Virus record (IMG/VR): IMGVR_UViG_3300030060_003808
Coordinates: 1 to 51,382 of that record
DNA length: 51,382 nt
Source of the DNA: a virus
Lineage: Duplodnaviria > Caudoviricetes
Strand: one strand, 5' to 3'
Both the position numbers and the translations under genes were made by a program. Within the stretch, counting starts at the first letter, position 1. Every line of letters begins with the position of its first letter. Shown piece after piece: positions 905 through 51,049 of this stretch. The notes beneath the pieces are model-generated. The model had not been told where the DNA came from. It saw only the letters and a list, made by a program, of their open reading frames with translations, and made no database searches.

Positions 905-939
905 TAAACGAGTTTATAAAAGTTAATACAAAATTACAA
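905..939 (-). promoter_or_regulatory. sigma70-type promoter, probably giving a leaderless mRNA
   Basis: Minus strand TTGTAA-N17-TAAACT, 6 nt before ATG 904; no SD. Confidence 0.55.
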
Positions 940-2268
940 ATCTAAGGAATCATTTTGTGCAGCTGCCATTTCTTGATCTTGGGCCAACAACATTGCACCA
1001 GCCACAGGTATTGCAACACCATATTTTTTAGAGATATCGATTACTCTGTCGTCAAAAATAACATAGTTACTGGTTTGGTCACCGACTTCCGAATACCGAC
1101 TAAATTCATCCAGGTATTTATTTCCTTTAATACCAACTGAATCTAATAACTCAGATGTTTTTTTAGCACCGATAAGCCCCTTCAACTCTCCTGTTAGACT
1201 GGCTCCACTGAAAGGTAACGGATTAGGAACAGATCTTTTTATAGCTTTTAATTCTTTTATGTAGTCACCAATGGTTTCTAGGCCTTCTAAAAAATCACTT
1301 TTTACAAATCCTTCATCAAGATTCAAACTTGAAATGGGTATTTCAAAAAGGTCATCAATTTTTTTCTTTACAGCTTTGTTTTGCTCGTTGAGCGGTTTAT
1401 CAAGATCAAGCAATTCATCTGGCGTTACTTTTAGTTTGACTTCATAAAGTTTTCCCGTGTCTTTTATTTTAATTTTGTCTATATTTTCTTCCAATAATGC
1501 AAGCTCGTCGGCATAACGCATTTTTTCATCAATCGTTCCGAAATCTTCTGCTCTTTTATAAGTTTCTTTTACTTCACCTAGCCATTTTCCAGTATCTTTG
1601 CCTGTTCTGTTTATTCTTTCAAAAAGATAAGTGTCAAAATATTCATTGCCTGTCGTGCCAACATATTCGTTGCCGATCCAAACTGGCTTTCCATCGTATT
1701 CAATGACAGCGCCCAATGCTTCTTTGTAGTTTTTTCCTACTTCATCTGCTTCTGCAAAATATAAACCACGGCCAAATGCTTGCACTCCTTCACCTGTGCC
1801 GATTTTTCCAATATCAAACTTATCGAAATCAGCAGCGGTTCCATGATAAGCAGTAATATAGTCCTCGCTTTCTGGTAAAGATGATAAGCCTTTCGCTTTT
1901 GCACCTTTGCTGGCCTTGCCTACAGCTCCGATCCCTTTGAGAGCTGTTCCAGCAATCGCTCCGTATGGTCCTGTGAGCGGAATTGAGGCATAAGCAGCAT
2001 CTCCCAGGACACCAGCTGACTGCAAAATTGCATCCAGGTATTGTTTGTTGGCAATGTTTTCAACAAAGCTCGGCATTTGCTCGGTAGGAATCATTTGTTC
2101 TTCGGTTGGCATCTCTGGATAGAAACCAAGATAGTCTGAGATCCCGGAGCTGGGTGCCATCAATCCAGCCATCCAAGCAGCTTGAGCTGGCAAAGCGCCT
2201 ACGCCTTCGCGATATGCTTGTGCTTCCTCCTGGCTGCGGAAGGGTTGAATTGAAAACTCACTGACCAT
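934..2268 (-). CDS. Putative virion-delivered effector with ADP-ribosyltransferase-like (ART-PolyVal type) domain
   Basis: YHGT..DFDKFD..KIGTGEG.QAFGRGLYFAE, GKLYEV, GIKG..Y.D and NYVIFD motifs, preceded by a Gly/Ala-rich pre-toxin-like helical leader. Confidence 0.7.
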   Translation of the reverse strand: MVSEFSIQPFRSQEEAQAYREGVGALPAQAAWMAGLMAPSSGISDYLGFYPEMPTEEQMIPTEQMPSFVENIANKQYLDAILQSAGVLGDAAYASIPLTGPYGAIAGTALKGIGAVGKASKGAKAKGLSSLPESEDYITAYHGTAADFDKFDIGKIGTGEGVQAFGRGLYFAEADEVGKNYKEALGAVIEYDGKPVWIGNEYVGTTGNEYFDTYLFERINRTGKDTGKWLGEVKETYKRAEDFGTIDEKMRYADELALLEENIDKIKIKDTGKLYEVKLKVTPDELLDLDKPLNEQNKAVKKKIDDLFEIPISSLNLDEGFVKSDFLEGLETIGDYIKELKAIKRSVPNPLPFSGASLTGELKGLIGAKKTSELLDSVGIKGNKYLDEFSRYSEVGDQTSNYVIFDDRVIDISKKYGVAIPVAGAMLLAQDQEMAAAQNDSLDL

Positions 2269-6510: not shown

Positions 6511-6600
6511 TCGATCCCGGTGGGTGGTTTTCTCCTAGATGTCTCACAGCACTTGAAAATTCCACCCACCACCCCAAATGGCATTGGGTGGGCACCCTAA
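6511..6600 (+). ncRNA. Candidate structured antisense sRNA / 3'UTR RNA
   Basis: Stem GGTGGGTGG 6519-6527 / CCACCCACC 6562-6570 encloses TTTTCTCCTA-G-ATGTCTCACA, complementary to the leaders of the genes starting at 9300 and 28462. Confidence 0.55.
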
Positions 6601-37231: not shown

Positions 37232-37675
37232 CTAAATCTCGTGCCATGGTTCATTCATAAATAACAAACTTTCTGCCTCACGCCTACGGATCAAGCCATC
37301 CAGTGTCTTTCCGCCAGCTTTATTCCATCGTCGCATTTCGCTTGGTACTTTGGCAAAATTCTTGGCATTTATTTCTTTCAACATTGTAGAGGACTTGAGA
37401 TTAGTCGGTCCAAGGTTGTATGTCCAAGCAACCAATGAATCAAATTCATTCTGTTGCAGATCCACAGTCACCATATTGTTGACATAGCCCTCATACTCAA
37501 TCAGCTCATCTTCAAGCATTTTGTCCGCATCTTCTTGTGTAATGCAATCACCTTTGCAAACATTTTTTGTGTGGCCATAGCCAATAGTCCATACATCTAC
37601 TGCATCTTTGTATGCAGTTAGTTCACACCCCTCAAATTTTTTGATAAGTGCCTTTCCCTCTTCGGATATTTTCAT
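37232..37675 (-). CDS. Endolysin, GH24 lysozyme
   Basis: LIKKFEGC..TAY.D...VWTIGYGHT (E-D-T triad), FDSLV.W.YNLG, RWNKAGGK.L.GL.RRR.AE; start ATG 37675. Confidence 0.92.
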   Translation of the reverse strand: MKISEEGKALIKKFEGCELTAYKDAVDVWTIGYGHTKNVCKGDCITQEDADKMLEDELIEYEGYVNNMVTVDLQQNEFDSLVAWTYNLGPTNLKSSTMLKEINAKNFAKVPSEMRRWNKAGGKTLDGLIRRREAESLLFMNEPWHEI

Positions 37676-37676
37676 T

Positions 37677-38090
37677 TCATACTCCCCATGTTCCGTCCGA
37701 TCTAATCTTAGCGACTTTTTTACCGCCGTGATATTCAACAGCCAACTGTTCATCAATAAGAATAGCGCAGATATCCCGACCATCTTCACTGTACGGAATA
37801 CCCAAGATACGTCCGTATTTACCTTTGCCAAGCGATTTAACTTTGAATTTACCACTACATAACTCCTTTAATCGTTCTTTTGCTTTCAACCCTAAGACCT
37901 TTTCTTGTGCTCTTTCTGGATATCTTTTTGTGTTGATGCGACTCTCCGGGGTATCGATCCCGGCAAGTCGTATTCTTTGTTTGTGCAATCTGACTGAAAA
38001 TCCTAGGTCCAGCACACAATCCAAGGTGTCCCCATCTATTATTCTGTCTAGGGTTGCGTTATATACAAAAGCATCTGGCGCATCACTCAT
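37677..38090 (-). CDS. Thermonuclease (SNase-like)
   Basis: RIIDGDT, RIRLAGIDTPE, KYGRILG. Confidence 0.88.
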   Translation of the reverse strand: MSDAPDAFVYNATLDRIIDGDTLDCVLDLGFSVRLHKQRIRLAGIDTPESRINTKRYPERAQEKVLGLKAKERLKELCSGKFKVKSLGKGKYGRILGIPYSEDGRDICAILIDEQLAVEYHGGKKVAKIRSDGTWGV

Positions 38091-38472
38091 TTGTTTCTCC
38101 TTCTTTGGTTGTAACCATTCTATAATAGACTACGACATCTTTGAGCTCAGTGATGTATCGTTTGAGCTCTTGCATGTTGTAGGCCATCACTTCGTAATCC
38201 GGCACTGTCATTGCTAAAAATACAAGCTCACCTTCTTGTTCTTCGATGATTTTAAATTGTTCTGTGTAGTTTTCTGGCGTAATCGTCAACCATCTGACTT
38301 CCTTGAGATCTATTTCCCTAGGCATTACAGGCTGGACAATCGTTCTGTCTATTGGCTTCGATGTAACCTGTATTTCTTTAGTTGGAATTAGACTGCAACT
38401 GCAAGCCATCATCGAGATCATCAACAGTGCTGCTGAGTTTTTCGATGTCTTCCATGATATGTTTTGTGCCAT
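38083..38472 (-). CDS. o-spanin (Rz1-like lipoprotein); true start probably further downstream
   Basis: Hydrophobic stretch with lipobox-like MMACSC; overlaps the 3' end of the i-spanin. Confidence 0.6.
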   Translation of the reverse strand: MAQNISWKTSKNSAALLMISMMACSCSLIPTKEIQVTSKPIDRTIVQPVMPREIDLKEVRWLTITPENYTEQFKIIEEQEGELVFLAMTVPDYEVMAYNMQELKRYITELKDVVVYYRMVTTKEGETNE

Positions 38473-38773
38473 TGTTTATTTTCCTCTGCATTTCTACCGG
38501 ATCTGCAAGTATTTTAGCTGTCAATTTATAATTCTGAATAAACTGAGTGTATCTGTTGAGCTCTCTCATTGCCGCTTGACTTTTAACTGTCATGTCTTGG
38601 AGCTGTTGTGTTTGGAGTTGAAAATCATTCTCCAAGGTTTTGATTGTCTCTTCCTGGATTGCAACAGCTCCCTCCAGGCTTTTATTATTGGCTTGTAAAA
38701 CAATGTTTTCGTTATATAGCCAATAAGAGAGAGCACCCAATACCAATATAATTCCTATAAGTAACTGTTGCAT
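38378..38773 (-). CDS. i-spanin (Rz-like)
   Basis: N-terminal TM helix followed by coiled coil. Confidence 0.65.
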   Translation of the reverse strand: MQQLLIGIILVLGALSYWLYNENIVLQANNKSLEGAVAIQEETIKTLENDFQLQTQQLQDMTVKSQAAMRELNRYTQFIQNYKLTAKILADPVEMQRKINNGTKHIMEDIEKLSSTVDDLDDGLQLQSNSN

Positions 38774-39012
38774 TATAATCTTTTGATTATGTAGTTAAGG
38801 CCGCCAGCGCTTCTGTATTCAATCAATTTATTATCCTCATCTATAAATTTTAAGTGCCTATCTTTTTGAACCATGACTCTTTTCGATATATAAATTCTAT
38901 CATCGGCATCGCCATACTCTTTGTTCCAGGACACTGTAATTTCATATCTTGGCCTCATTAAGTTTATCAACCAAGTAAAAAACTTTTTAGCAGCTTTTTT
39001 TATACTGTCCAT
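38773..39012 (-). CDS. Hypothetical protein
   Basis: 79-aa coupled ORF. Confidence 0.6.
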   Translation of the reverse strand: MDSIKKAAKKFFTWLINLMRPRYEITVSWNKEYGDADDRIYISKRVMVQKDRHLKFIDEDNKLIEYRSAGGLNYIIKRL

Positions 39013-40766
39013 ATTGGCAGCTCATCCTTTTTACCTTTTACTTTAATCGATTCTAGTGATTTTAATACAAGTTTGCAATTCTTTGCAGTGTTCTCACCAA
39101 TCAATATATCTACACCTACGTCTTTTGTTGCGCTTTCTAATCTCGCCGCAGTATTAACTGGATCACCGATTGCTGAATAATCAAATCGAGTGTCAGATCC
39201 CATGTTACCTATGACAGCATTACCGGATTGACAGCCGACGCCCACTTGGACTGGATTGGATAATGTTTTGTTGAGCTCGTCTATTCCTTTTTGTATGTCT
39301 ATGGCCGCTTGAACAGCTTTGGTTTCATGTTCATCAAGATCCAAAGGAGCTCCAAAAATAAACATCCCGGCATCCCCAATAAATTTGTCGGTCATTCCTC
39401 CTAGTTTTTGCACAGCGTTTACTTGGACTGTCAAAGTTTTATTCATTATTTCGGTTACTTCTTCTGGAGATAATTTTTCACTGAGAGCTGTAAAACCACG
39501 AAGATCTGTAAAAAGATAAGTGCAGTATCTTTTTTCTCCGCCCAGCTTCAACAGATCTGGATTTTTTTGGAGCTGCTTAACTTGTCTTGGATCCAAATAA
39601 TGCTCAAATTGTTTTTTGATCTGTTGTCTCAGTTTATATTGTTTTCTGAAATTTAGATAAAAAGCGACAAAACCTACGATAAAACCAGCAATTAATGTCC
39701 AGGTAACATCAATTAAAAGCCCTTTTTGTATGGTTTGGTATCCAAAATAAGCGATTAGAGCGTTTATCAGCCCATAAGATACTAGACCAAGGGTAATGCC
39801 AAATACGTTCAATACGATCCAAATACAGCTTACTGAGAGCAAAAACAGTGCTATTTCTGCCAACAAAGCATAGTCTGGGATAATTGGGCTGTCTTGGATT
39901 AAAATTGACTCAGAAAGCGCAGCTTGTATTTTATGCGGTTCCAATAGGCCAGCTGGTGTCGCAACCTGTGGCATGATGCCTTTGGCCGTTACACCAACAA
40001 AAATAAAACGACCTTTGATGAGCTCAGTCTGTCTAATATCATTTAATGAAAATTGTGGCGTATCAACCCAGCTAATCCATTTTCTTCCCAGGGTGTCTGT
40101 TTTGACAGGAGGCAAGCCTTTAACTCGGACCTCTTGGATTCCAGCATCGGAGGTTTTAATTACATAAGTATCGGCACCAGCAAGGACTTTTAAGACTTCT
40201 GTTCCGTATGCACTCACCCAGCCATCTGGTGTTCTGAGCAACAATGGCATACGCCTTACCAGCTGATCTACTTCTGTGGGTGCTACCGCAATGCCCTGGT
40301 ATGCTGCTTCTCTTAATATCGGTATGTTCTGCACCACGCCTTTTGCTTTGAAACCGCCATGGTCTTGGCCCAAAATCACTGTTCCGGTTGTCATTGGGTA
40401 TTCGCCATTGTCGTTTTCAAATGTAGCCAATACGCTTGGTGCAGCTGCTAGGCTTTTTGCAAACTCTGAGTCACCACCAAATCTGTCATTCTGTGGAAAA
40501 GAGATTACCCAGCCAACTCCCAAGGCGCCTTGATCTAATAATTCATTTTGAATTTTTGCCAAGCGGTTTCGTGGAAACGGATAACCGCCTTCTTTTTCTA
40601 CGTCGTCTTCCGTAATGTTTAGTATCGAGAAATATCCAGAAGGTTTTTGTTCTGGAACCAATGTATCAAATGTTTTGAGTTTTAGTATTTCTAATGGAGT
40701 CCATTGTTGGACCAAAGGAGCTCCTAATAAAATGAGCAAAAAACCTAGCTGTATGGCTCTAATCAC
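39000..40766 (-). CDS. CHASE2-domain class III adenylate cyclase
   Basis: Periplasmic CHASE2 (GGYPFPRNRLA, DRFGGD..FA, DQLVRRMPL), three TM helices, cyclase motifs FTDLRGFT, DKFIGD, DYSAIGDPVNTAARLES (K/D pair indicates ATP specificity). Confidence 0.92.
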   Translation of the reverse strand: MIRAIQLGFLLILLGAPLVQQWTPLEILKLKTFDTLVPEQKPSGYFSILNITEDDVEKEGGYPFPRNRLAKIQNELLDQGALGVGWVISFPQNDRFGGDSEFAKSLAAAPSVLATFENDNGEYPMTTGTVILGQDHGGFKAKGVVQNIPILREAAYQGIAVAPTEVDQLVRRMPLLLRTPDGWVSAYGTEVLKVLAGADTYVIKTSDAGIQEVRVKGLPPVKTDTLGRKWISWVDTPQFSLNDIRQTELIKGRFIFVGVTAKGIMPQVATPAGLLEPHKIQAALSESILIQDSPIIPDYALLAEIALFLLSVSCIWIVLNVFGITLGLVSYGLINALIAYFGYQTIQKGLLIDVTWTLIAGFIVGFVAFYLNFRKQYKLRQQIKKQFEHYLDPRQVKQLQKNPDLLKLGGEKRYCTYLFTDLRGFTALSEKLSPEEVTEIMNKTLTVQVNAVQKLGGMTDKFIGDAGMFIFGAPLDLDEHETKAVQAAIDIQKGIDELNKTLSNPVQVGVGCQSGNAVIGNMGSDTRFDYSAIGDPVNTAARLESATKDVGVDILIGENTAKNCKLVLKSLESIKVKGKKDELPIWTV

Positions 40767-41472
40767 CTTGATTAATCGTCAATGTTTTATTGCAATTATT
40801 GGTGCAGTTATAATTTACTGTGATTGATTTATTGGTTGTTCCCGATTGACTTGCGGTGACATCGTAATCATCTGTGTAGAAATTTAATCTCATGTAATGA
40901 TCCCCGCTGCCTGTTTGTGTGATTGTGGCATCGTTGTTATCAGCCGAAGTGCTCGCATAAATCTTGGCGTAATGTTCTCCCGTTCCGGATTGATTGATAG
41001 AAAAATTGGAGCTGTCGCCAAAAGCACGGATCTCGCCTTCTTTATCATCGCCAGTTTGAGTTATGGAATACACGTTATTATCGCCTTGCATGTAGATTTC
41101 TGCATCGTTGTTGTTGCCATTCTGCACAACATCCATATCATTTCCATCATCGTCTGCATCGATATAACCAAAGTTATCATTGCCGTCCTGGTCAATCTTG
41201 TATTCATTTCCTGTGTGGTTGGCTACTTGGCTGTAAGCTCTGGCCGTGTTGCTCGTTCCTTCTTGGTCAATATCAATCGTAGCATTGCTGCAATTATGTG
41301 TGGTGTAAGTGCCTTGCGATAACCCGCACCAAACTCTTGCAGTATTACTGGTGCCAATTTGATCGATATGTATTAGCGAGGAGCTGCCTTTGGTTCTGAT
41401 CTCAACATTGTTGTCGCCCGCAACAGCAACAAAAGAAAATATACTAATCAGACTGATTGATAATAATTTCAT
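40759..41472 (-). CDS. Secreted curlin-repeat protein (CsgA/CsgB-like)
   Basis: Signal peptide, then ~22-aa repeats IDQ.G..N (IDQIGTSN, IDQEGTSN, IDQDGNDN, VVQNGNNN, ITQTGDD, INQSGTG). Confidence 0.75.
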   Translation of the reverse strand: MKLLSISLISIFSFVAVAGDNNVEIRTKGSSSLIHIDQIGTSNTARVWCGLSQGTYTTHNCSNATIDIDQEGTSNTARAYSQVANHTGNEYKIDQDGNDNFGYIDADDDGNDMDVVQNGNNNDAEIYMQGDNNVYSITQTGDDKEGEIRAFGDSSNFSINQSGTGEHYAKIYASTSADNNDATITQTGSGDHYMRLNFYTDDYDVTASQSGTTNKSITVNYNCTNNCNKTLTINQGD

Positions 41473-42535
41473 TTTCTCCGCCTCCATTGGTGGTTATGTT
41501 TATCTGCTTACCAGCAGAGAGTATCTGTATATTATATCCACCGGATTTATCTAATTCTAAATCAATGGTGTTTTCTACTTGCCTAACCAAAGTTAAGATT
41601 TCGCCTTCGACAAACGTATATACTTGTGCATCTTGGTCAAATCCAGCAATGATTCCTTCTATTCTCACGCCATCAATTTCACTAGCGTCTTGTTCTTTTT
41701 TACCTAAATCTTCAATGATTTCAAGTAGATCTTGTAGAAAATCGACGGCCAGTAAATCAATATCAAGCCTGGTAATCTCATCTTGTAGTTCATCTTCCGA
41801 TAAACCGCTGTCGTCGTCTAGGTCATTTTCCTCCAAAAAATCAGCATCCAAAACATTGCTCGACGAAGTGCTTTGATCTTCAACAGCTCTTTCAACTTCT
41901 TCTGGTGGGCTCACGATCAATAAATTATCAATAAAATTGAGCGATAAGTTTGCCAATACGACAGGTTGTGTCGGTGGTCTTTCTGCAACACTGACCATTG
42001 TGGCTTGGAATGGTTGATTCAAAACCTCGGTCCCGGCTATGGTTTCGACACTGATTGATCCAGAAGTGGTGCCGTCTGGGTTGGGAAGTAGAATTATAAG
42101 CGAGCGGCCGAGCTCATCGACTGTGGTTGTAAAATCAGTGCCTCTGATAAAAATTGAAGCACTCGGTGTCTCTATGGAGATGTTTTCTTTGTCTATTTTT
42201 CCCAGGGCGCCAGTAATAAAGCGGGCTGTTCCGCTGGCCATCTTGAGTGCCATTTTGCTTTTAGAAGGGTTAGGATCAAATATGTATTCATCAATAATGA
42301 TTTTAGAGTGCTCAGTAAGACGAATAACAGAAGAATCGAGAAACGTAATGCCAAGCCTACCATTGCCAGTCCGCACATCATCATAACTAAGAATGTCCAA
42401 AGAAGTTCTTGCGAGAAGTTTATCCGTTTGATCTGCTCGTAAAACTTCTCCATTGCCTCTGAGCTCAGATATCTCGCCCACTTGTGCATAAACATTGAAA
42501 GCCAGTGACGCTAGGATTAGCAGCCACTTGTGCAC
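41444..42535 (-). CDS. FecR-domain periplasmic protein
   Basis: Signal peptide; D.VRTGNG...ITFLD.S.IRLTEHS, G.ARF.TG, TPSASI.IRGTDF; acidic C-terminal half. Confidence 0.85.
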   Translation of the reverse strand: MHKWLLILASLAFNVYAQVGEISELRGNGEVLRADQTDKLLARTSLDILSYDDVRTGNGRLGITFLDSSVIRLTEHSKIIIDEYIFDPNPSKSKMALKMASGTARFITGALGKIDKENISIETPSASIFIRGTDFTTTVDELGRSLIILLPNPDGTTSGSISVETIAGTEVLNQPFQATMVSVAERPPTQPVVLANLSLNFIDNLLIVSPPEEVERAVEDQSTSSSNVLDADFLEENDLDDDSGLSEDELQDEITRLDIDLLAVDFLQDLLEIIEDLGKKEQDASEIDGVRIEGIIAGFDQDAQVYTFVEGEILTLVRQVENTIDLELDKSGGYNIQILSAGKQINITTNGGGENEIIINQSD

Positions 42536-43200
42536 TGATCTATGTCTATCGTTGCATTACTGGTGGTGGATGTAATTACCACAACGTCTGAAACACTGCC
42601 TGTGCTATTTGTTTGATCGATGTCTATGTTGTTCGTGGATCCGTCGATCTCAGCTGTGATTGAATGGTCAGAGTTTCCTGTTTGTGTCGTATCAATATCA
42701 TTAGAATCGCCATCAACATCCCAATTATTTATGCAGCCAACCACCTCACATGTTGCATTGAGATCATTTGAGTTTCCAGCAATTACGATGTCTTGATTAC
42801 CAGCGGTTGCGGTTGCTGCTGCACCTTGGGTAAATGTTACTGTGTTTGAATCACCTGTGGCCGCGTAATCGAAATCAGTGTTCGCTACATCTCCACTCGC
42901 ACCCAATGCCAATGTGGTTGTATTACTATCACCTGTAGTTGTAGCTGTAAAACTGGTGCTATTACCTTGGGCCACAGAAGCAGCCATGGTATTACTGTCA
43001 CCCACTTGGTCAATATCCACAGTCATGGATGTTCCTGTAAATGTTGCTCTCGTTTGTGATGTACCCACCTTGTTTGTGTCACCGATCTGATCTATATTCA
43101 TGGTCAACCCGGTTCCAGACTGAGTGATATAAATATCATTATTGCCAGCGTAAACTGTAGATACAGCAAACAATAAAATTAAACTAAGTATTTTCTTCAT
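42517..43200 (-). CDS. Secreted curlin-repeat protein (CsgA/CsgB-like)
   Basis: Signal peptide; repeats ITQSG, IDQIGDTN, IDQVGDSN, TTGDSN, ATGDSN, IAGNSN, VDGDSN, IDGSTN. Confidence 0.75.
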   Translation of the reverse strand: MKKILSLILLFAVSTVYAGNNDIYITQSGTGLTMNIDQIGDTNKVGTSQTRATFTGTSMTVDIDQVGDSNTMAASVAQGNSTSFTATTTGDSNTTTLALGASGDVANTDFDYAATGDSNTVTFTQGAAATATAGNQDIVIAGNSNDLNATCEVVGCINNWDVDGDSNDIDTTQTGNSDHSITAEIDGSTNNIDIDQTNSTGSVSDVVVITSTTSNATIDIDQCTSGC

Positions 43201-44005
43201 AACTAATGTCCCACAATTCTTCGTCAATACCTATTTGAATTAGATTATACACGGATTCTTCGATCGCAGCTTTTGTCGCATATCCCATGGGCTCATTTTC
43301 ACTATACCCGGTTTCTAGCTCAACGAGCTCCGTGCCCATTTCTATAAAACGAAACACATCTCTGCTCACGCCAGCGCTTAATATTGTTTTTGAAACCATC
43401 GTATTTAAAATGACTTCACCTGTTTGCACCAAGACAGCTCTCAAAGAAACAGTTATTTCGTCTTTACGCCACTGGTTATTTGAGCCAATTCCAAGGTATC
43501 TGGCCCCGTTTCCTCCGGTACCGATATTTGTATCATACTGTATAATCGCGCCTTCAATTATAATACCAGCAAATAATAGGGGTTTTAAAGTGTTGCCATT
43601 TTCACCATCATAACTTTGCCTGGTAGATTTTATGAGTTGACGTTCCCGTGTCAAAGCGTCTAAATTATTACGCTCAACGACTACAAACCAATTCCCTTTG
43701 CCCGCGCTTCTCAAGGAATCAATCAAATAATGGTCAGCTCCCTGGGTAACAGCGGTGCTAAATAATGCCATTTTCTGTGAGCTCTTGCGCTGTCCAGTCA
43801 AATCTTGAAACTTATATACGGCGACAACTGCTTTTTGATTGGGTGGCGGCAAATTAACCAGTTTTTCATGTGTTGGCCGCACAATTTTTGCTTCTTCAAC
43901 ACATTCTAAAAAACTGCCACAGCCAGTGCTGCCTACAGGTGCAAAGCTCGCACATCCATGCAAAATTGGCAATAAAACTATTAAATACCGCACTCGCCAG
44001 TACAT
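43184..44005 (-). CDS. csgG: Curli secretion channel CsgG
   Basis: Lipobox LHGC; LPPP...VAVYKFQDLTGQRK, FSTAVTQGA, WF.VVER..L..LT.ERQLI, EGAIIQYD, GARYLGIG, V.LR.V...TGEV, SKTILS. Confidence 0.92.
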   Translation of the reverse strand: MYWRVRYLIVLLPILHGCASFAPVGSTGCGSFLECVEEAKIVRPTHEKLVNLPPPNQKAVVAVYKFQDLTGQRKSSQKMALFSTAVTQGADHYLIDSLRSAGKGNWFVVVERNNLDALTRERQLIKSTRQSYDGENGNTLKPLLFAGIIIEGAIIQYDTNIGTGGNGARYLGIGSNNQWRKDEITVSLRAVLVQTGEVILNTMVSKTILSAGVSRDVFRFIEMGTELVELETGYSENEPMGYATKAAIEESVYNLIQIGIDEELWDISYEENT

Positions 44006-44454
44006 ACGCCAAATATCCCCACTGGAATTATTATTTCTGTGATATTTCCATCTGAATCAATCACTGTCAATGTTATGTTGATACCATCGTTCACAAAACT
44101 TATGGTATTGCCTTCGAGATCTATGGTCCCACCAGTGCCACCGCTTTCTGAGTTAAATAACGATTCTGCAATGTCTCTGGAGAGCTGCGAGTAAATTCTG
44201 GATTCTAGGTTTCGTAAAAATTTTGCAAGCGTTGTGTTCTCGGCTTCACGCTCTGCTTCTTTTAAAGCATCTTCTACTTCTTGTGCAATTTCGTCACGCC
44301 TGGTCTTTTCTTGCTCATCGATCGTTAAATAATGTGAGGAGCTCCCAATACCAGAAAAACTTGGGCTTTTGAATTGATGTACGATCTCATCCGATATAAC
44401 ATTCGGTGATAAAAAGATAGCTACATATAACCAATAGTTATTCCTTTTTTTCAT
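43981..44454 (-). CDS. csgF: Curli assembly factor CsgF
   Basis: Signal peptide, mature N-terminus EIVHQFKSPSFSG (cf. FQFRNPNFGG), F..NLESRIYSQLS; adjacent to csgG. Confidence 0.8.
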   Translation of the reverse strand: MKKRNNYWLYVAIFLSPNVISDEIVHQFKSPSFSGIGSSSHYLTIDEQEKTRRDEIAQEVEDALKEAEREAENTTLAKFLRNLESRIYSQLSRDIAESLFNSESGGTGGTIDLEGNTISFVNDGINITLTVIDSDGNITEIIIPVGIFGVCTGECGI

Positions 44455-44689
44455 TTTTCTCTTGCTCTCTAAGACGCACCACTGTATCGACTTTCTCTTT
44501 CAATCGTATCATATCCTGGTCTAGCAGTCGAAGCTGGTCGGTGAGCCTTATGATTGTGACTCGCATCTCTTCCACAGCTGGATCAATGATTCTAGTGATT
44601 GTCTGCCAAACAAAGAAAACAAAATAGCCTAGACCTATGGCCATGACTGTAGGAAAACCAAACTTCTGAACGAGCTCCACAATATCCAT
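44438..44689 (-). CDS. Small membrane protein (TM + coiled coil)
   Basis: LVQKFGFPTVMAIGLGYFVFFVW, then LDQDMIRL; paralog-like to the next gene. Confidence 0.65.
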   Translation of the reverse strand: MDIVELVQKFGFPTVMAIGLGYFVFFVWQTITRIIDPAVEEMRVTIIRLTDQLRLLDQDMIRLKEKVDTVVRLREQEKNEKKE

Positions 44690-44985
44690 TAATCTCTCCT
44701 GGCATCGATCTTTCCATCTTCTACAAAGTTTTCAGCTCTGGCAATTCGGTCCAAATCTGGAGGCATGTTCAAAGCACTTGACACGATTGTATCAATCCGA
44801 ATGATATCGTTGTTCATTATGGACGCCCGGGTAATGAGCATTTTCGTGATTCCTTGTATTGTTTTTATATCGTCGACTAGGCCGCCCATGAGCTGTCGCA
44901 TAATTAGAAATATAAAGTAGCCCATGATGAGGCCACTTGCGATGGGTAAACCGAGATCGCTAATCAAGCCAATGGCTTGTTCCAT
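44689..44985 (-). CDS. Small membrane protein (TM + coiled coil)
   Basis: LISDLGLPIASGLIMGYFIFLIM, then MNNDIIRI. Confidence 0.65.
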   Translation of the reverse strand: MEQAIGLISDLGLPIASGLIMGYFIFLIMRQLMGGLVDDIKTIQGITKMLITRASIMNNDIIRIDTIVSSALNMPPDLDRIARAENFVEDGKIDARRD

Positions 44986-45371
44986 TACTTATCTTCGCCT
45001 TTGAATCCTTTGCTTTGTCCGGATTTACCCGAGTAGACTCCAAATACGACGCCCATTGCCCCAACCACGACACTAACCAGAGCAGACTGTTCTAAATTTG
45101 GATCGGTTAAATTCATAAACCAAATAACAGATTCATACATGAGATAAATGTAAACGACTACAAATATTCTGGGAAAAATTCTCCAAGCATCAATCGCCCT
45201 GGCTAGATGTATGACTTTTTGCCAAGGATTAACATTTGATTCATCTTCGAGCTCTCTTATTTTGTCTTTTAATTCAGATATCTCTCGCATCATATCCATA
45301 AATTTCGAAAGGTCGATCTCGACCTCATTCCGGTCCATGTCTCCTTGGAATTGTCCTGGATGTTGATTCAT
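44985..45371 (-). CDS. Holin-like two-TM protein
   Basis: IDAWRIFPRIF...WFM.L..P..EQSALVSVVVGA; start ATG 45371 overlaps the upstream stop. Confidence 0.55.
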   Translation of the reverse strand: MNQHPGQFQGDMDRNEVEIDLSKFMDMMREISELKDKIRELEDESNVNPWQKVIHLARAIDAWRIFPRIFVVVYIYLMYESVIWFMNLTDPNLEQSALVSVVVGAMGVVFGVYSGKSGQSKGFKGEDK

Positions 45372-45550
45372 AACATTGCAGCCAATCCTACTACTGCGAC
45401 AATAAATGGGTAAACGGCCCAAATCATGCTTTCTAACTTATCAAATCTTTTGGATCCGTCTTCAAGCCGCCTTTCAATGTTTTGATAGCGTAGTGTGCAC
45501 TCTCTTTCGTGTGCTGCAATCCTTGTCATTGCTTTCTCGAGATCAGCCAT
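45368..45550 (-). CDS. XhlA-like coiled-coil/TM protein
   Basis: HERECTLRY..IERRL..G..RFDKLE followed by a C-terminal TM helix. Confidence 0.6.
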   Translation of the reverse strand: MADLEKAMTRIAAHERECTLRYQNIERRLEDGSKRFDKLESMIWAVYPFIVAVVGLAAML

Positions 45551-45714
45551 TATTTGTTCTTTTTTTTAACGGCGACTGTTTTGTAGGCCTCATTGACATC
45601 ATCGGTCGATTTATCATCGCCCACATAAGTCCCGTCTTCATTTCTGGCCCGAACCTTTTTTGATTCATAGCCTAAGAATTTAATTTTGAACCAATCTGAT
45701 AATCCGTAAGCCAT
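45550..45714 (-). CDS. Hypothetical protein
   Basis: RARNEDGTYVGDDKSTDDVNEAY motif; start ATG 45714 with SD AGGAG. Confidence 0.65.
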   Translation of the reverse strand: MAYGLSDWFKIKFLGYESKKVRARNEDGTYVGDDKSTDDVNEAYKTVAVKKKNK

Positions 45715-45890
45715 TACTTTTCTCCTGGTTTCATTTTGGCGCGGCCGATATTGAGCGCACATAAATCTATTAATTTATATAGCTTGCCAATCCAAACGTC
45801 GTCTTTCGGTGTTTTAGTAACCGCAGCTATGATGCTGCTCACACTAATGATTGCCATTATTAATGCCATCATATTTGCAAAAGTTTGCAT
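45714..45890 (-). CDS. Small holin-like membrane protein (58 aa)
   Basis: Not in the track. MQTFANMMALIMAIISVSSIIAAVTKTPKDDVWIGKLYKLIDLCALNIGRAK; TAATG couplings on both sides. Confidence 0.7.
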   Translation of the reverse strand: MQTFANMMALIMAIISVSSIIAAVTKTPKDDVWIGKLYKLIDLCALNIGRAKMKPGEK

Positions 45891-49681: not shown

Positions 49682-51049
49682 TTATTCTACCTCAAAAATA
49701 TTTATGTTTTTAGGATTGTAATTATTTATAAACTTTTGTAAACTTGAATCTATGGAAGAATTTAATACATTATATTTTACTTGGGAAGAAGGGCCAGCAG
49801 TATTAGAGCCTGTTGAAAATGGCGATATTGGGTTCTTCATTACGCCTGGCGAATCTAATTGGATGCTTGCTACACCAAGGCAAGTTGCAGACTTTTTTAT
49901 TGACGGCTCAGAGATGTCCAAAACAAATTTTGAAAATAAATTTGGCGGCATAGGCGAAGGCTTGCCAGAGCTCCCAGCTGTAACATAACCACCACTAGCA
50001 AACTTTTTGATGTCTTGATCGTAAAATCTTGGATCTATTTCTTTTTTTGCTTGCCCAAAAATACTTTGCATTTCCTCAACCAATATTTTTCCTTTTGTTC
50101 GAGCTTCTCTGTTGAGTTTTGCAAGGTCATCAACATTATCCGGCAAACCTTTTGGAAAAACAGATCTAAACTCCTCATAGGCTAAGTGTGTCTTGTTTAC
50201 CGCTTTCCACATTGGTTCAGTTATGACACCAATCTCTGCCACTAGGGTTTCACCATCAGAGCCAGTAAACTGAATGTTTAATTTACGATCTACAAAACCT
50301 TCTGGCTTTATTTTTCTGCCTTTATCAAAAACTTTATAATTTTTCTTCATCAAATTTACAAAGGCTTCTTCTTCGGCTGGTGTTTTGATAACAACTCTTG
50401 TTCTAAGTGAATCGGTTATTTTTGATATATCGCCTTTGTATTTGGTGTCGGTTTTTTCTACAATTCTAGGAACTTGTTTTATTGTTCCAAGTGGCTCTCC
50501 ATGTTTGCCCATTTTTCCAATAGATTCTGGTATTGTTGTTTTTAAATCTAACTGTCTTGCTAGATTGTCAATTTGTTGATTAAACTCCGGGGCCAGTTTT
50601 ACCGCAACACTTCGCATCTTGTGTGCTTTTCCTATGGTAGAGTGTTTTTTATCAAATAATTCACGTTGAACAAATGTCAAATTTTCTCTGCTTGATGTTT
50701 CGCCTAAACCGCCAATTCCTTTCCTAACTGCTGGCATCAATGCTCGTTTGAGCGGTTCTTTGCCGAATCTTGTCAGCTCACCTACAACGGGTATGGCTGC
50801 AAGACCGGATAATCCAGCAATCCCAAGTTTCATCGCGGCGGATCCGAGCTCACCCTGGCTAAAGTCACGATAAGCATCACGGCCGTATTTGCCAGCTGCG
50901 GCTATGTCCATGGCTACGCCTGGAGGAGTGAAGCCAGCTGCAATCTGGGCCAGTAGCGGTACATTTTGTTCGTAACCTTCAACAGCTTTATCAAGGAAAT
51001 CTCTCTGTGCCGCACCGCCATCTTGAAAAATGTCGATATCTCGATACAT
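49682..51049 (-). CDS. Putative virion-delivered effector with RelA/SpoT-like nucleotidyltransferase domain
   Basis: IKQVPRIVEK, ITDSLRTRV, GFVDRKLNI, AEIGVIT resemble Syn1-Syn4; pre-toxin-like leader (GFTPPG...AAIPVVG); N-terminal IDIFQDGG. Confidence 0.7.
   Translation of the reverse strand: MYRDIDIFQDGGAAQRDFLDKAVEGYEQNVPLLAQIAAGFTPPGVAMDIAAAGKYGRDAYRDFSQGELGSAAMKLGIAGLSGLAAIPVVGELTRFGKEPLKRALMPAVRKGIGGLGETSSRENLTFVQRELFDKKHSTIGKAHKMRSVAVKLAPEFNQQIDNLARQLDLKTTIPESIGKMGKHGEPLGTIKQVPRIVEKTDTKYKGDISKITDSLRTRVVIKTPAEEEAFVNLMKKNYKVFDKGRKIKPEGFVDRKLNIQFTGSDGETLVAEIGVITEPMWKAVNKTHLAYEEFRSVFPKGLPDNVDDLAKLNREARTKGKILVEEMQSIFGQAKKEIDPRFYDQDIKKFASGGYVTAGSSGKPSPMPPNLFSKFVLDISEPSIKKSATCLGVASIQLDSPGVMKNPISPFSTGSNTAGPSSQVKYNVLNSSIDSSLQKFINNYNPKNINIFEVE
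49716..49751 (+). promoter_or_regulatory. Internal antisense sigma70 promoter
   Basis: TTGTAA(49716)-N17-TAAACT(49739), 7 nt before ATG 49752; hexamers identical to the promoter at 905-939. Confidence 0.6.
49752..49988 (+). CDS. Acidic 78-aa protein nested antisense in the RelA/SpoT-like gene; candidate immunity protein
   Basis: Globular-looking, aromatic and acidic sequence with its own promoter, while the opposite-strand frame becomes Ser/Pro-rich here. Confidence 0.6.
   Translation: MEEFNTLYFTWEEGPAVLEPVENGDIGFFITPGESNWMLATPRQVADFFIDGSEMSKTNFENKFGGIGEGLPELPAVT

What the first reader, a model, noticed from the sequence alone, without database searches (positions are those of the whole stretch)
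39000..44985. Phage-encoded curli-type secretion operon with two curlin subunits, FecR and a CHASE2 adenylate cyclase, inside the lysis cassette
Seen: overlapping, co-oriented genes in the order two TM proteins, csgF, csgG, curlin-repeat protein, FecR, curlin-repeat protein, CHASE2-3TM-class III cyclase with intact catalytic residues. The block sits between holin-like genes and the spanin/nuclease/lysozyme genes. No csgE, csgC or csgD is recognisable. Established: CsgG/CsgF export curlin amyloid subunits, FecR domains relay periplasmic signals, and csgF/csgG have been reported in T4-like marine myophages. Inference: in this podovirus-like phage the pore, its substrates and a cAMP-producing receptor form one unit. 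It could be a trans-envelope sensor (surface beta-solenoid, then FecR, then CHASE2, then cAMP) that affects lysis timing, superinfection response or host aggregation, rather than a plain biofilm module.
Basis: partly seen in the sequence, partly recalled or inferred. Interest (0 to 1): 0.9.

Follow-up and report, generated by a model that had tools for sequence, protein, structure and literature searches.

The report
Known phage curli-plus-cyclase module
This marine phage carries an eight-gene cassette (curli-type outer-membrane pore, fibre subunits, a FecR-domain protein and a sensor adenylate cyclase) that was already described in 2022 for this phage group, and what it does is still unknown.

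Summary
Window 39000-44985 (minus strand) encodes eight overlapping genes: two small paralogous membrane proteins, CsgF, CsgG, a curlin-like protein, a FecR-domain protein, a second curlin-like protein, and a CHASE2 class III cyclase. Spanins, a nuclease, the endolysin and TerL follow.

It is not new. Wittmers et al. 2022 (PMC9599517) describe this gene order in HTVC023P-type podophages and pelagimyophages. GenBank records of HTVC008M and Melnitz show the same order.

Linkage in IMG/VR is near-perfect. Of 51 CsgG-anchored loci with enough flank, 49 have the cyclase and 51 have FecR. All 22 cyclase-anchored loci have CsgG.

- The cyclase sensor is CHASE2.
- FecR next to CHASE2 is a bacterial pair: 31 of 80 nearest bacterial loci have it, and 0 of 80 have curli genes.
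- The FecR protein has a C-terminal domain found almost only in this protein family.
- The published "histidine kinase" label for the small proteins has no support.
- The lysis-gene neighbourhood is common in the sampled viral contigs but not universal (43 of 90).

The trans-envelope sensor idea stays untested.

The parts
44689..44985 (-). Small membrane protein, 98 aa. One N-terminal hydrophobic segment followed by a helical region. Paralog of the next gene.
   Evidence: No Pfam family. phrog_18771 at 1e-23. Hydropathy. BLASTP to the 83-aa protein gives E 3e-6. Among 50,697 phage records, homologs occur only in HTVC008M and Melnitz, directly upstream of csgF.
44438..44689 (-). Small membrane protein, 83 aa. 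Second member of the same family.
   Evidence: phrog_18771 at 9e-25. Of 66 family members scanned, 0 match a histidine-kinase Pfam family at E 0.01 or better. A profile search of the PDB gives only weak matches (E above 0.02), mostly to coiled coils.
43981..44454 (-). CsgF-like protein, 157 aa, with a signal-peptide-like N-terminus.
   Evidence: Pfam CsgF at 2.2e-11, covering profile positions 18-132 of 132. phrog_35372 at 6.5e-41. No sequence-level match to a solved CsgF.
43184..44005 (-). CsgG outer-membrane channel lipoprotein, 273 aa. A Cys follows LHG in the leader.
   Evidence: Pfam CsgG at 1.1e-54. Matches solved E. coli CsgG at 5e-46 over residues 44-268. 47% identical to HTVC008M CsgG.
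42517..43227 (-). Curlin-like beta-solenoid protein. The ORF is 236 aa from TTG. The likely start is the ATG at 43200, giving 227 aa. It has a signal peptide and a C-terminal Cys pair.
   Evidence: Curlin_rpt at 18.3 bits, below the cut-off. Repeated Q-x-G-x-x-N columns are invariant in 41 sequences, and relatives start at MKK. AlphaFold model pLDDT 83.4, all beta. VIA Z 17.8 to the SufD beta-helix, rmsd 2.9 over 196 residues, and Z 10-13 to pectate lyases and tailspikes.
41444..42535 (-). Secreted FecR-domain protein, 363 aa. It has a signal peptide, a FecR-like beta domain (about 16-209), an acidic disordered linker (about 209-282) and a family-specific C-terminal beta domain (285-360).
   Evidence: Pfam FecR at 5.6e-11. 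Model pLDDT 73.4. VIA Z 16.2 to the PupR C-terminal signalling domain 6ovk, rmsd 2.5 over 137 residues. The FecR neighbours of bacterial cyclases match only profile positions of about 7-206 with significance. A profile of the C-terminal domain finds 186 proteins among 1.84 billion representatives.
40759..41487 (-). Second curlin-repeat protein, 242 aa, with a signal peptide and a C-terminal CxxxC motif.
   Evidence: Curlin_rpt at 3.6e-17, four stretches. NCBIfam CsgA at 4e-13 and CsgB at 1e-12, both below the curated cut-offs. Present in 45 of 51 CsgG-anchored loci.
39000..40766 (-). Receptor adenylate cyclase, 588 aa. Order: TM segment, periplasmic CHASE2 domain, hydrophobic block at about 301-368, linker, class III cyclase domain.
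   Evidence: Pfam CHASE2 at 7.3e-25 and Guanylate_cyc at 6.1e-19. Solved bacterial cyclases match at 2e-33 to 8e-25. Catalytic positions are invariant in 59 sequences. Hydropathy.
38773..39012 (-). 79-aa protein of unknown function between the cyclase and the spanins.
   Evidence: No Pfam, NCBIfam or PHROG family. Homologs were detected in 13 of 157 loci.
38083..38773 (-). Overlapping i-spanin (38378-38773) and o-spanin (38083-38472) pair.
   Evidence: phrog_739 at 1.5e-8 and phrog_812 at 3.2e-11, both Rz-like spanin. N-terminal TM segment and lipoprotein-like leader.
37232..38090 (-). Nuclease (37677-38090) and endolysin (ORF 37232-37855, likely start near 37675).
   Evidence: phrog_452 endonuclease at 1.2e-30. 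phrog_7 endolysin at 6e-59, matching residues 50-202 of the ORF.

Best explanation
This is a copy of the viral type VIII (curli-like) secretion module already described for HTVC023P-type podophages and pelagimyophages.

The module is a chimera of three parts:
- An alphaproteobacterial-style csgF-csgG-curlin export unit.
- A bacterial signalling pair, made of a secreted FecR-domain protein and a CHASE2 receptor adenylate cyclase.
- Two small membrane proteins found only with this module.

Likely working (inferred): the cassette is transcribed with the downstream lysis and packaging genes. Sec exports CsgG, CsgF, the curlins and the FecR protein. CsgG and CsgF form an outer-membrane channel without a CsgE gate. 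One or two Cys-bearing beta-solenoid proteins are secreted onto the infected cell. In parallel, the FecR protein acts as periplasmic partner of the CHASE2 domain, and the cyclase makes cAMP in response to an envelope or secretion-state cue.

Shown here: the domain identities, the beta-helix model, the intact cyclase residues and the near-obligate linkage of all parts.

Inferred: secretion, fibre formation, FecR-CHASE2 contact and cAMP output.

Unresolved: the benefit to the phage. Candidates are aggregation, superinfection exclusion and lysis timing.
For: Domains.

Published description: the same order, written 'HK'-CsgF-CsgG-CsgA/B-FecR-(CsgA/B)-AC, with expression in metatranscriptomes (PMC9599517, passages).

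Cultured phages: GenBank records of HTVC008M and Melnitz show the same order. TerL is 57-62% identical to HTVC023P, HTVC027P and 023Pt_psg01.

Linkage in IMG/VR:
- 51 CsgG-anchored loci with at least 5.2 kb downstream: 51 have the first curlin, 51 FecR, 45 the second curlin, 49 the cyclase.
- 22 cyclase-anchored loci with at least 5.2 kb upstream: 22 each have CsgG, CsgF, FecR and a small TM protein.
- The order holds down to about 30-45% identity.

Bacterial comparison:
- Of the 80 nearest bacterial CHASE2 cyclases, 31 have a FecR-domain ORF within 10 kb and 19 within 500 bp. None of the 80 has CsgG, CsgF or a curlin.
- Seven alphaproteobacterial CsgG loci show csgF-csgG-curlin with 0 of 7 having FecR, cyclase or TM homologs.
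- Published FecR-CHASE2 clusters: PMC9239204, PMC5192318, PMC5498481 (passages).

Structure and residues: beta-helix model of the first curlin. Cyclase residues invariant in 59 sequences.

Transcription: genes overlap, and terminator-like sites are no more frequent than in shuffled sequence (13 found against 9.8 +/- 2.9).
Against: There is no experiment on any part of the module.

The CsgG constriction differs from E. coli. The Phe is kept, but the Tyr and Asn positions are not (alignment; residue roles recalled).

The curlins carry conserved Cys pairs that E. coli CsgA lacks (recalled). They may therefore not behave like classical curli.

In S. meliloti the FecR-domain neighbour was reported as not needed for signal perception by the CHASE2 cyclases (PMC5498481, passage).

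Two of the 51 loci lack the cyclase and six lack the second curlin. Those two parts are therefore dispensable.

All synteny counts come from related phages and include some loci cut from the same contig. They count sequences, not independent events.
Confidence: 0.6

Rival explanations
1. Lysis-timing device. The ungated CsgG pore, or cAMP from the sensor cyclase, tunes when the holin-endolysin-spanin pathway fires. This would be a functional analogue of pinholins or of T4 lysis inhibition. The repeat proteins would be accessory.
For: Buchholz et al. proposed lysis regulation for Melnitz CsgGF (PMC9004378, passages). In this phage the cassette abuts the spanins, nuclease and endolysin with overlapping reading frames. 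Spanin or endolysin homologs lie within 2.5 kb downstream of the cyclase in 43 of 90 loci.
Against: In HTVC008M and Melnitz the module is not next to lysis genes. 47 of 90 loci show no detectable lysis homolog downstream, although divergent genes would be missed. No holin is identified here. An outer-membrane pore cannot depolarise the inner membrane (established knowledge). The curlins are kept in 51 of 51 loci, which a pure pore role does not explain.
Confidence: 0.15
2. Trans-envelope tether sensor. The FecR protein spans the outer membrane through CsgG or docks on the curlin fibre by its C-terminal domain. It then reports surface events to CHASE2 and the cyclase.
For: The FecR protein has an acidic disordered linker of about 70 residues and a C-terminal beta domain (pLDDT about 80-86). 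The FecR neighbours of bacterial cyclases give no significant match to either (31 ORFs). The domain is nearly confined to this family (186 hits in 1.84 billion representatives). Its last strand resembles the first strand of both mature curlins, but only weakly (hhalign probability 3-10%). The gene order is interleaved (curlin, FecR, curlin, cyclase).
Against: The strand similarity is not significant. The fold of the C-terminal domain is unassigned. There is no evidence that a folded FecR domain is held at the CsgG channel. See also the S. meliloti result under the best explanation.
Confidence: 0.1
3. Open import or export pore. CsgG and CsgF without a CsgE gate let small solutes (cofactors, siderophores, peptides) cross the outer membrane. 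FecR and the cyclase regulate uptake-related physiology.
For: This is offered as an alternative in PMC9599517 (discussion passage). No CsgE was found in the genome.
Against: The seven alphaproteobacterial csgF-csgG-curlin loci sampled show the same compact order, though CsgE was not searched for in them. The paper says CsgC, CsgD and CsgE are not present in alphaproteobacterial modules (section read). Lack of a gate is therefore probably ancestral, not a phage adaptation. The FecR protein lacks the anti-sigma part, and the phage lacks an ECF sigma factor, so an iron-regulator reading has no basis. The curlins are universally kept.
Confidence: 0.1

Closest known systems
Viral T8SS module of HTVC023P-type podophages and pelagimyophages (Wittmers et al. 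2022, PMC9599517; GenBank HTVC008M KC465899, Melnitz MZ577097)
   Same: Same eight genes in the same order. The phage lineage matches by TerL (57-62% identity). CsgG is 44-47% identical to the myophage copies, and FecR is 34-39% identical.
   Different: Nothing in the architecture differs. The paper calls the small proteins histidine kinases and FecR an iron regulator. It does not mention CHASE2, spanin, holin or endolysin (0 occurrences each). Its supplements were not seen and may list this genome.
Enterobacterial curli system (csgBAC-csgDEFG)
   Same: CsgG channel lipoprotein, CsgF, and secreted proteins with curlin repeats.
   Different: No CsgE or CsgC. One operon instead of two divergent ones. 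The subunits are about 230-240 aa with conserved C-terminal Cys pairs. The constriction residues differ in part. The cassette also has FecR, the cyclase and the small membrane proteins.
Alphaproteobacterial csgF-csgG-curlin loci
   Same: Order csgF, csgG, then one to three curlin-repeat genes, in the 7 best of 39 CsgG-positive genomes among 401 searched.
   Different: 0 of 7 have FecR, CHASE2 cyclase or small TM homologs within about 9 kb.
Bacterial FecR-domain protein plus CHASE2 sensor pairs (Campylobacterota cAMP cluster PMC9239204; S. meliloti CyaD1 with SMc02177, PMC5498481; Burkholderia BiofilmReg PMC5192318)
   Same: A secreted FecR-domain protein is encoded next to a CHASE2 receptor. 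Among the 80 nearest bacterial cyclases this holds within 500 bp in 19 and within 10 kb in 31.
   Different: The sampled bacterial pairs are never next to curli genes (0 of 80). The bacterial FecR proteins lack the acidic linker and C-terminal domain. Identity to the phage cyclase is mostly about 26-35% (best segment up to 42%).
FecR/PupR anti-sigma regulators of cell-surface signalling
   Same: The periplasmic FecR-like fold matches: Z 16.2, rmsd 2.5 over 137 residues to 6ovk.
   Different: There is no cytoplasmic anti-sigma domain and no membrane anchor beyond a signal-peptide-like leader. The phage has no ECF sigma factor.

Membership tests
Published viral T8SS module (Wittmers 2022) | Gene order: small membrane protein(s), CsgF, CsgG, curlin, FecR, (curlin), adenylate cyclase | tested here: met
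   against the paper's passages. The same order is annotated in HTVC008M and Melnitz.
Published viral T8SS module (Wittmers 2022) | Carried by HTVC023P-type podophages or pelagimyophages | tested here: met
   TerL is 62.5% identical to 023Pt_psg01, 58.5% to HTVC027P and 57.2% to HTVC023P.
Curli / type VIII secretion | CsgG channel domain | tested here: met
   Pfam 185.4 bits against a cut-off of 20.8. Solved E. coli CsgG matches at 5e-46.
Curli / type VIII secretion | CsgF partner | tested here: met
   Pfam 44.5 bits against a cut-off of 25.8. No phmmer match to a solved CsgF.
Curli / type VIII secretion | Secreted subunits with curlin repeats | tested here: met
   The 242-aa protein scores 62.5 bits against 20.7. 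The 236-aa protein scores 18.3 bits, below the cut-off, but is a paralog (E 8e-9) and models as a beta-helix.
Curli / type VIII secretion | CsgE gate and CsgC chaperone (enterobacterial type) | tested here: not met
   No match at E 1 or better in the genome. The paper states that alphaproteobacterial modules also lack them (section read).
Curli / type VIII secretion | Subunits form extracellular amyloid fibres | not testable with these tools
   Needs Congo red or ThT binding and microscopy.
CHASE2 receptor class III adenylate cyclase | CHASE2 domain between transmembrane segments, followed by a cyclase homology domain | tested here: met
   Pfam 88.4 and 68.7 bits. Hydrophobic segments at 1-19 and within 301-368.
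CHASE2 receptor class III adenylate cyclase | Metal-binding Asp pair, substrate Lys, transition-state Asn and Arg | tested here: met
   D421, D465, K461, N538 and R542 are invariant in 59 sequences. Alignment to solved cyclases. Residue roles are recalled.
CHASE2 receptor class III adenylate cyclase | Makes cAMP | not testable with these tools
   Needs cyaA complementation or an enzyme assay.
FecR-type anti-sigma factor | Periplasmic FecR domain | tested here: met
   Pfam 43.2 bits. Z 16.2 to PupR 6ovk.
FecR-type anti-sigma factor | N-terminal cytoplasmic anti-sigma domain with a membrane anchor, and a cognate ECF sigma factor | tested here: not met
   The FecR domain starts at residue 52, after a leader. 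No Sigma70_r2 domain in the genome.
Histidine kinase (label given in print to the small proteins) | HisKA or HATPase domains | tested here: not met
   No Pfam family for the 98-aa protein and only a weak non-kinase match (TMEM62_C, E 0.06) for the 83-aa protein. 0 of 66 family members match a kinase family. No HisKA in the genome.
Phage lysis cassette | Endolysin and a spanin pair | tested here: met
   phrog_7, phrog_739 and phrog_812.
Phage lysis cassette | Holin upstream of the block | tested here: inconclusive
   The small TM proteins at 44985-45890 match only PHROGs of unknown function or none.

The most novel reading that the evidence does not exclude
The FecR protein is a phage-built coupler. 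Its FecR domain engages the CHASE2 cyclase in the periplasm. Its family-specific acidic linker and C-terminal beta domain engage the CsgG channel or the curlin fibre. Under this reading the cassette is a single trans-envelope device. It would convert secretion load or events at the cell surface (contact, superinfection) into cAMP, and through that influence the adjacent lysis genes.
Probability: 0.12. Interest if true: 0.8.

Novelty: already known. Interest (0 to 1): 0.35.

Why it matters
The module is one of the most widespread accessory cassettes in marine phages. IMG/VR alone gave 267 CsgG relatives and at least 594 cyclase relatives. The protein collection gave 7,571 cyclase relatives among the 8,000 candidates scored. 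Its hosts are reported to lack curli genes (PMC9599517, PMC9004378).

Knowing what it does would show how infection reshapes the surface and signalling of very abundant ocean bacteria.

For this scan the main result is that the finding is a rediscovery. The useful residue is a sharper hypothesis: the FecR-CHASE2 pair is a bacterial sensor module grafted onto a curli export unit. It also corrects two published labels. 'Histidine kinase' has no support, and 'iron regulator FecR' does not fit a protein without the anti-sigma part.

Tried and rejected
DNA search. blastn of the block against 50,697 phage records found nothing.

Complex prediction. FecR (residues 19-363) with the CHASE2 periplasmic domain (24-300) returned no verdict (score 0.00, controls not run). 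This says nothing either way.

Foldseek. The search of the curlin model gave no match at E 0.001 or better. Only the VIA second look gave clear beta-helix rows. The Foldseek match of the FecR model to a 'cell surface anchoring domain' (5ix9) looked at first like a clue for the C-terminal domain. VIA places it on residues 16-114, the N-terminal FecR fold, so I dropped it.

C-terminal domain of FecR.
- The protein-atlas look-up gave no usable hit.
- The profile search found one 3,353-aa repeat protein. Its Pfam rows are scattered weak matches, so I set it aside.
- hhalign of the FecR C-terminus against the curlin and CsgF profiles gave probabilities of 1-10% only.

Small membrane proteins. The atlas look-up gave only unnamed viral clusters, plus one automatic 'MotA/TolQ/ExbB' name with no Pfam support.

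Curlin profile comparison. hhalign of the two curlin profiles gave E 1.8e-39. My two sets were slightly cross-contaminated, so I rely on the BLASTP of the window's own pair.

Promoters and terminators. The scan was at chance level.

Sequencing runs. Two runs held small shares of the region. An RNA-library contig of 772 nt covers 38108-38879 (spanins) with 5 differences. The T8SS genes were covered only by short partial pieces in that run. This shows neither expression nor silence of the module.

tRNAs. None were found, so there is no host clue.

Corrected count. I first counted 33 bacterial loci with FecR by eye and wrote that in note 2. The scripted count is 31 of 80.

Papers, and what I saw of each.
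- PMC9599517: passages and section 8 in full.
- PMC9004378, PMC5192318, PMC5498481, PMC9239204: passages only.
- PMC7029224: search listing and start of the abstract only.
- Supplements are closed. Fig. S3 and Data Set S1 of PMC9599517 may list this genome.

Searches behind 'not in print in this library'.
- 'CHASE2' + 'FecR': 4 papers, none on phages.
- 'CHASE2' + 'adenylate cyclase' + 'periplasmic': 6 papers.
- 'curli' + 'pelagiphage' from 2022: 4 papers.

Full report
WHAT IS THERE

The window is a whole 51,382-base virus record, estimated 95% complete. It has a terminase, portal, major head protein, tail fibre and primase-helicase. TerL is 57-62% identical to phage 023Pt_psg01 and to Pelagibacter phages HTVC027P and HTVC023P.

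On the minus strand, 44985 to 39000 holds eight genes whose frames overlap by 1-44 nt:
- Two small membrane proteins of 98 and 83 aa.
- CsgF.
- CsgG.
- A 236-aa repeat protein.
- A 363-aa FecR-domain protein.
- A 242-aa curlin-repeat protein.
- A 588-aa CHASE2 class III cyclase.

All Pfam matches pass their curated cut-offs except Curlin_rpt in the 236-aa protein, which scores 18.3 bits against 20.7. That protein is nevertheless a paralog of the 242-aa one (31% over 200 aa, E 8e-9). It has invariant Q-x-G-x-x-N columns in 41 sequences. It models at pLDDT 83 as an all-beta helix that aligns with SufD (Z 17.8, rmsd 2.9, 196 residues), pectate lyases and tailspikes.

Directly downstream come a 79-aa ORF, an overlapping spanin pair, a nuclease, the endolysin and TerL. 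Upstream are small proteins with one or two hydrophobic segments but no assigned function. 'Holin-like' is therefore unverified.

No CsgE, CsgC, cNMP-binding, Sigma70_r2 or HisKA domain is found anywhere in the genome.

IT IS ALREADY DESCRIBED

Wittmers et al. 2022 (PMC9599517; passages, section 8) report this cassette in HTVC023P-type podophages and in pelagimyophages. They describe one or two 'histidine kinases', CsgF, CsgG, CsgA/B and FecR, frequently followed by a second CsgA/B and an adenylate cyclase. Their further points:
- FecR and the cyclase are not in bacterial T8SS operons.
- The nearest relatives are alphaproteobacterial.
- Myo- to podovirus transfer is likely.
- The genes occur at all 65 GOV2.0 stations and are found in metatranscriptomes.
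- Proposed roles are aggregation ('sibling capture'), superinfection defence, import, or host recombination.

Buchholz et al. 2022 (PMC9004378, passages) proposed that the Melnitz CsgGF pore regulates lysis.

The GenBank records of HTVC008M and Melnitz show the same eight-gene order. In Melnitz, FecR, both curlins and the cyclase are annotated. Among 50,697 phage records, CsgG homologs occur in these phages plus one 1.5-kb Salmonella phage fragment (7 records). FecR and small-protein homologs occur only in these phages (6 records each).

HOW TIGHT IS THE UNIT

IMG/VR holds 267 CsgG relatives among 269 candidate stretches. I kept 157 loci and scanned them with profiles built from the phage proteins.

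- CsgG-anchored loci with at least 5.2 kb downstream (51): 51 have the first curlin, 51 FecR, 45 the second curlin, 49 the cyclase. In the one exception I read (L071), the module ends after FecR and opposite-strand genes follow.
- Cyclase-anchored loci with at least 5.2 kb upstream (22): all 22 have CsgG, CsgF, FecR and at least one small membrane protein.
- The order is unchanged down to about 30-45% identity.

Caveats: the loci are relatives, and a few come from the same contig. These are counts of sequences, not of independent events.

Spanin or endolysin homologs lie within 2.5 kb downstream of the cyclase in 43 of 90 loci. In the myophages the neighbours are the ssDNA-binding protein gene upstream and a minus-strand gene downstream, a tail tape measure in HTVC008M and a hypothetical protein in Melnitz. 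The lysis neighbourhood is therefore common among these contigs, not a property of the module.

WHERE THE PARTS COME FROM

The 80 nearest bacterial relatives of the cyclase are mostly Alphaproteobacteria at mostly about 26-35% identity (best segment up to 42%).
- 31 of 80 have a FecR-domain ORF within 10 kb, and 19 within 500 bp.
- 0 of 80 have CsgG, CsgF, a curlin or the small proteins.
- Five of those genomes have no CsgG at all.

Conversely, I searched 401 genomes of the class that holds the genome titled Bradyrhizobium sp. ORS 111. Of these, 39 have CsgG. The seven best loci read csgF-csgG-curlin(s), with 0 of 7 showing FecR, cyclase or small-protein homologs within about 9 kb.

FecR-domain proteins next to CHASE2 sensors are in print for Campylobacterota cAMP clusters, for S. 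meliloti CyaD1 and for a Burkholderia kinase operon. The phage cassette is thus two bacterial modules spliced together with interleaved genes, plus two module-specific small proteins.

(a) CHASE2. The cyclase's periplasmic sensor is CHASE2. The word does not occur in the 2022 paper.

(b) The FecR protein is not an iron regulator of the FecR/FecI type. It has a leader followed directly by the FecR fold (Z 16.2 to PupR's signalling domain). It has no anti-sigma part, and the phage has no ECF sigma factor.

(c) The FecR protein has extra parts. It carries an acidic disordered linker (about 209-282) and a C-terminal beta domain (285-360, pLDDT about 80-86). The FecR neighbours of bacterial cyclases give no significant match to either part (31 ORFs, significant matches within profile positions of about 7-206). 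A profile of the domain finds only 186 proteins among 1.84 billion representatives, nearly always at a C-terminus.

(d) The 'histidine kinase' label has no support. The two window proteins match no kinase family, 0 of 66 family members do, and the PDB gives only weak matches, mostly coiled coils.

(e) The cyclase looks functional. The metal, substrate and transition-state positions are invariant in 59 sequences. Solved bacterial class III cyclases match at 2e-33 to 8e-25.

(f) Cys pairs co-vary. Both curlins, and in half of the lineages CsgF, end in a Cys pair. The CsgF and first-curlin CxxxC motifs are both present or both absent in 73 of 74 distinct pairs. This is a clade effect at least in part.

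MECHANISM

The best-supported reading has two arms.
- Export arm: the CsgG lipoprotein and CsgF, without a CsgE gate, secrete one or two beta-solenoid proteins.
- Signalling arm: a secreted FecR-domain co-sensor works with a CHASE2 cyclase that makes cAMP.

The two arms are expressed together and selected together. The link between them is inferred from gene order and co-occurrence only.

Points against, or still open:
- The phage has no cAMP reader.
- Part of the CsgG constriction is changed.
- In S. meliloti the FecR neighbour is reported as dispensable for signal perception.
- The cyclase and the second curlin are lost in a few lineages.

Rival readings are lysis timing, a trans-envelope tether through the FecR C-terminal domain, and an open solute pore. 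They are scored separately. None is excluded.

VERDICT

Interest is moderate because the function is still open, and because the FecR-CHASE2 framing gives testable predictions.

Noticed in passing
whole window; L001, L002, L240, L241: The window has 42.1% G+C. The sampled regions of cultured relatives have 33.7-37.0% (HTVC008M, HTVC027P, 023Pt_psg01, Melnitz), and the median of 157 related viral loci is 37.3%. The host of this genome may not be SAR11. No tRNA gives a clue.
   Followed up: partly
window 40759-44454 (C-termini of CsgF and both curlins): Cys pairs sit near the C-terminus. Two or more Cys lie in the last 30 residues in 77 of 84 first curlins, 58 of 58 second curlins and 45 of 90 CsgF proteins. 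The FecR proteins have none (0 of 113). The CsgF CxxxC and first-curlin CxxxC are both present or both absent in 73 of 74 distinct pairs. Relatedness of the loci is not controlled for.
   Followed up: partly
L069, L071 (IMG/VR loci): A variant of the module lacks the cyclase. In L071 it ends after FecR and opposite-strand genes follow.
   Followed up: partly
window 43184-44005: Against E. coli CsgG, the loop aligned to the constriction keeps the Phe. The Tyr and Asn positions are replaced, and the loop is one residue longer (alignment; residue roles recalled).
   Followed up: no
protein P0144: A 205-aa predicted protein joins the FecR C-terminal domain (residues 18-96) to the start of a CHASE2 domain (115-193). 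It is either a gene-calling fusion across adjacent genes or a real fusion in a lineage without the second curlin.
   Followed up: no
window 37677-38090: A nuclease gene (phrog_452, 1.2e-30) sits between the o-spanin and the endolysin and overlaps both. In other loci its homolog lies upstream of the module instead.
   Followed up: no
window 38108-38879: One 772-nt contig from a marine metatranscriptome library covers the spanin genes with 5 differences. DNA carry-over is not excluded.
   Followed up: no
window 934-2268, 2454-2515, 6511-6600, 49682-51049: Other first-stage notes on this genome cover RelA/SpoT-like and ART-like effectors, palindromes and an sRNA candidate (listed). I did not examine them. 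PHROGs gave no family for the ORFs at 934-2268 and 49682-51049.
   Followed up: no
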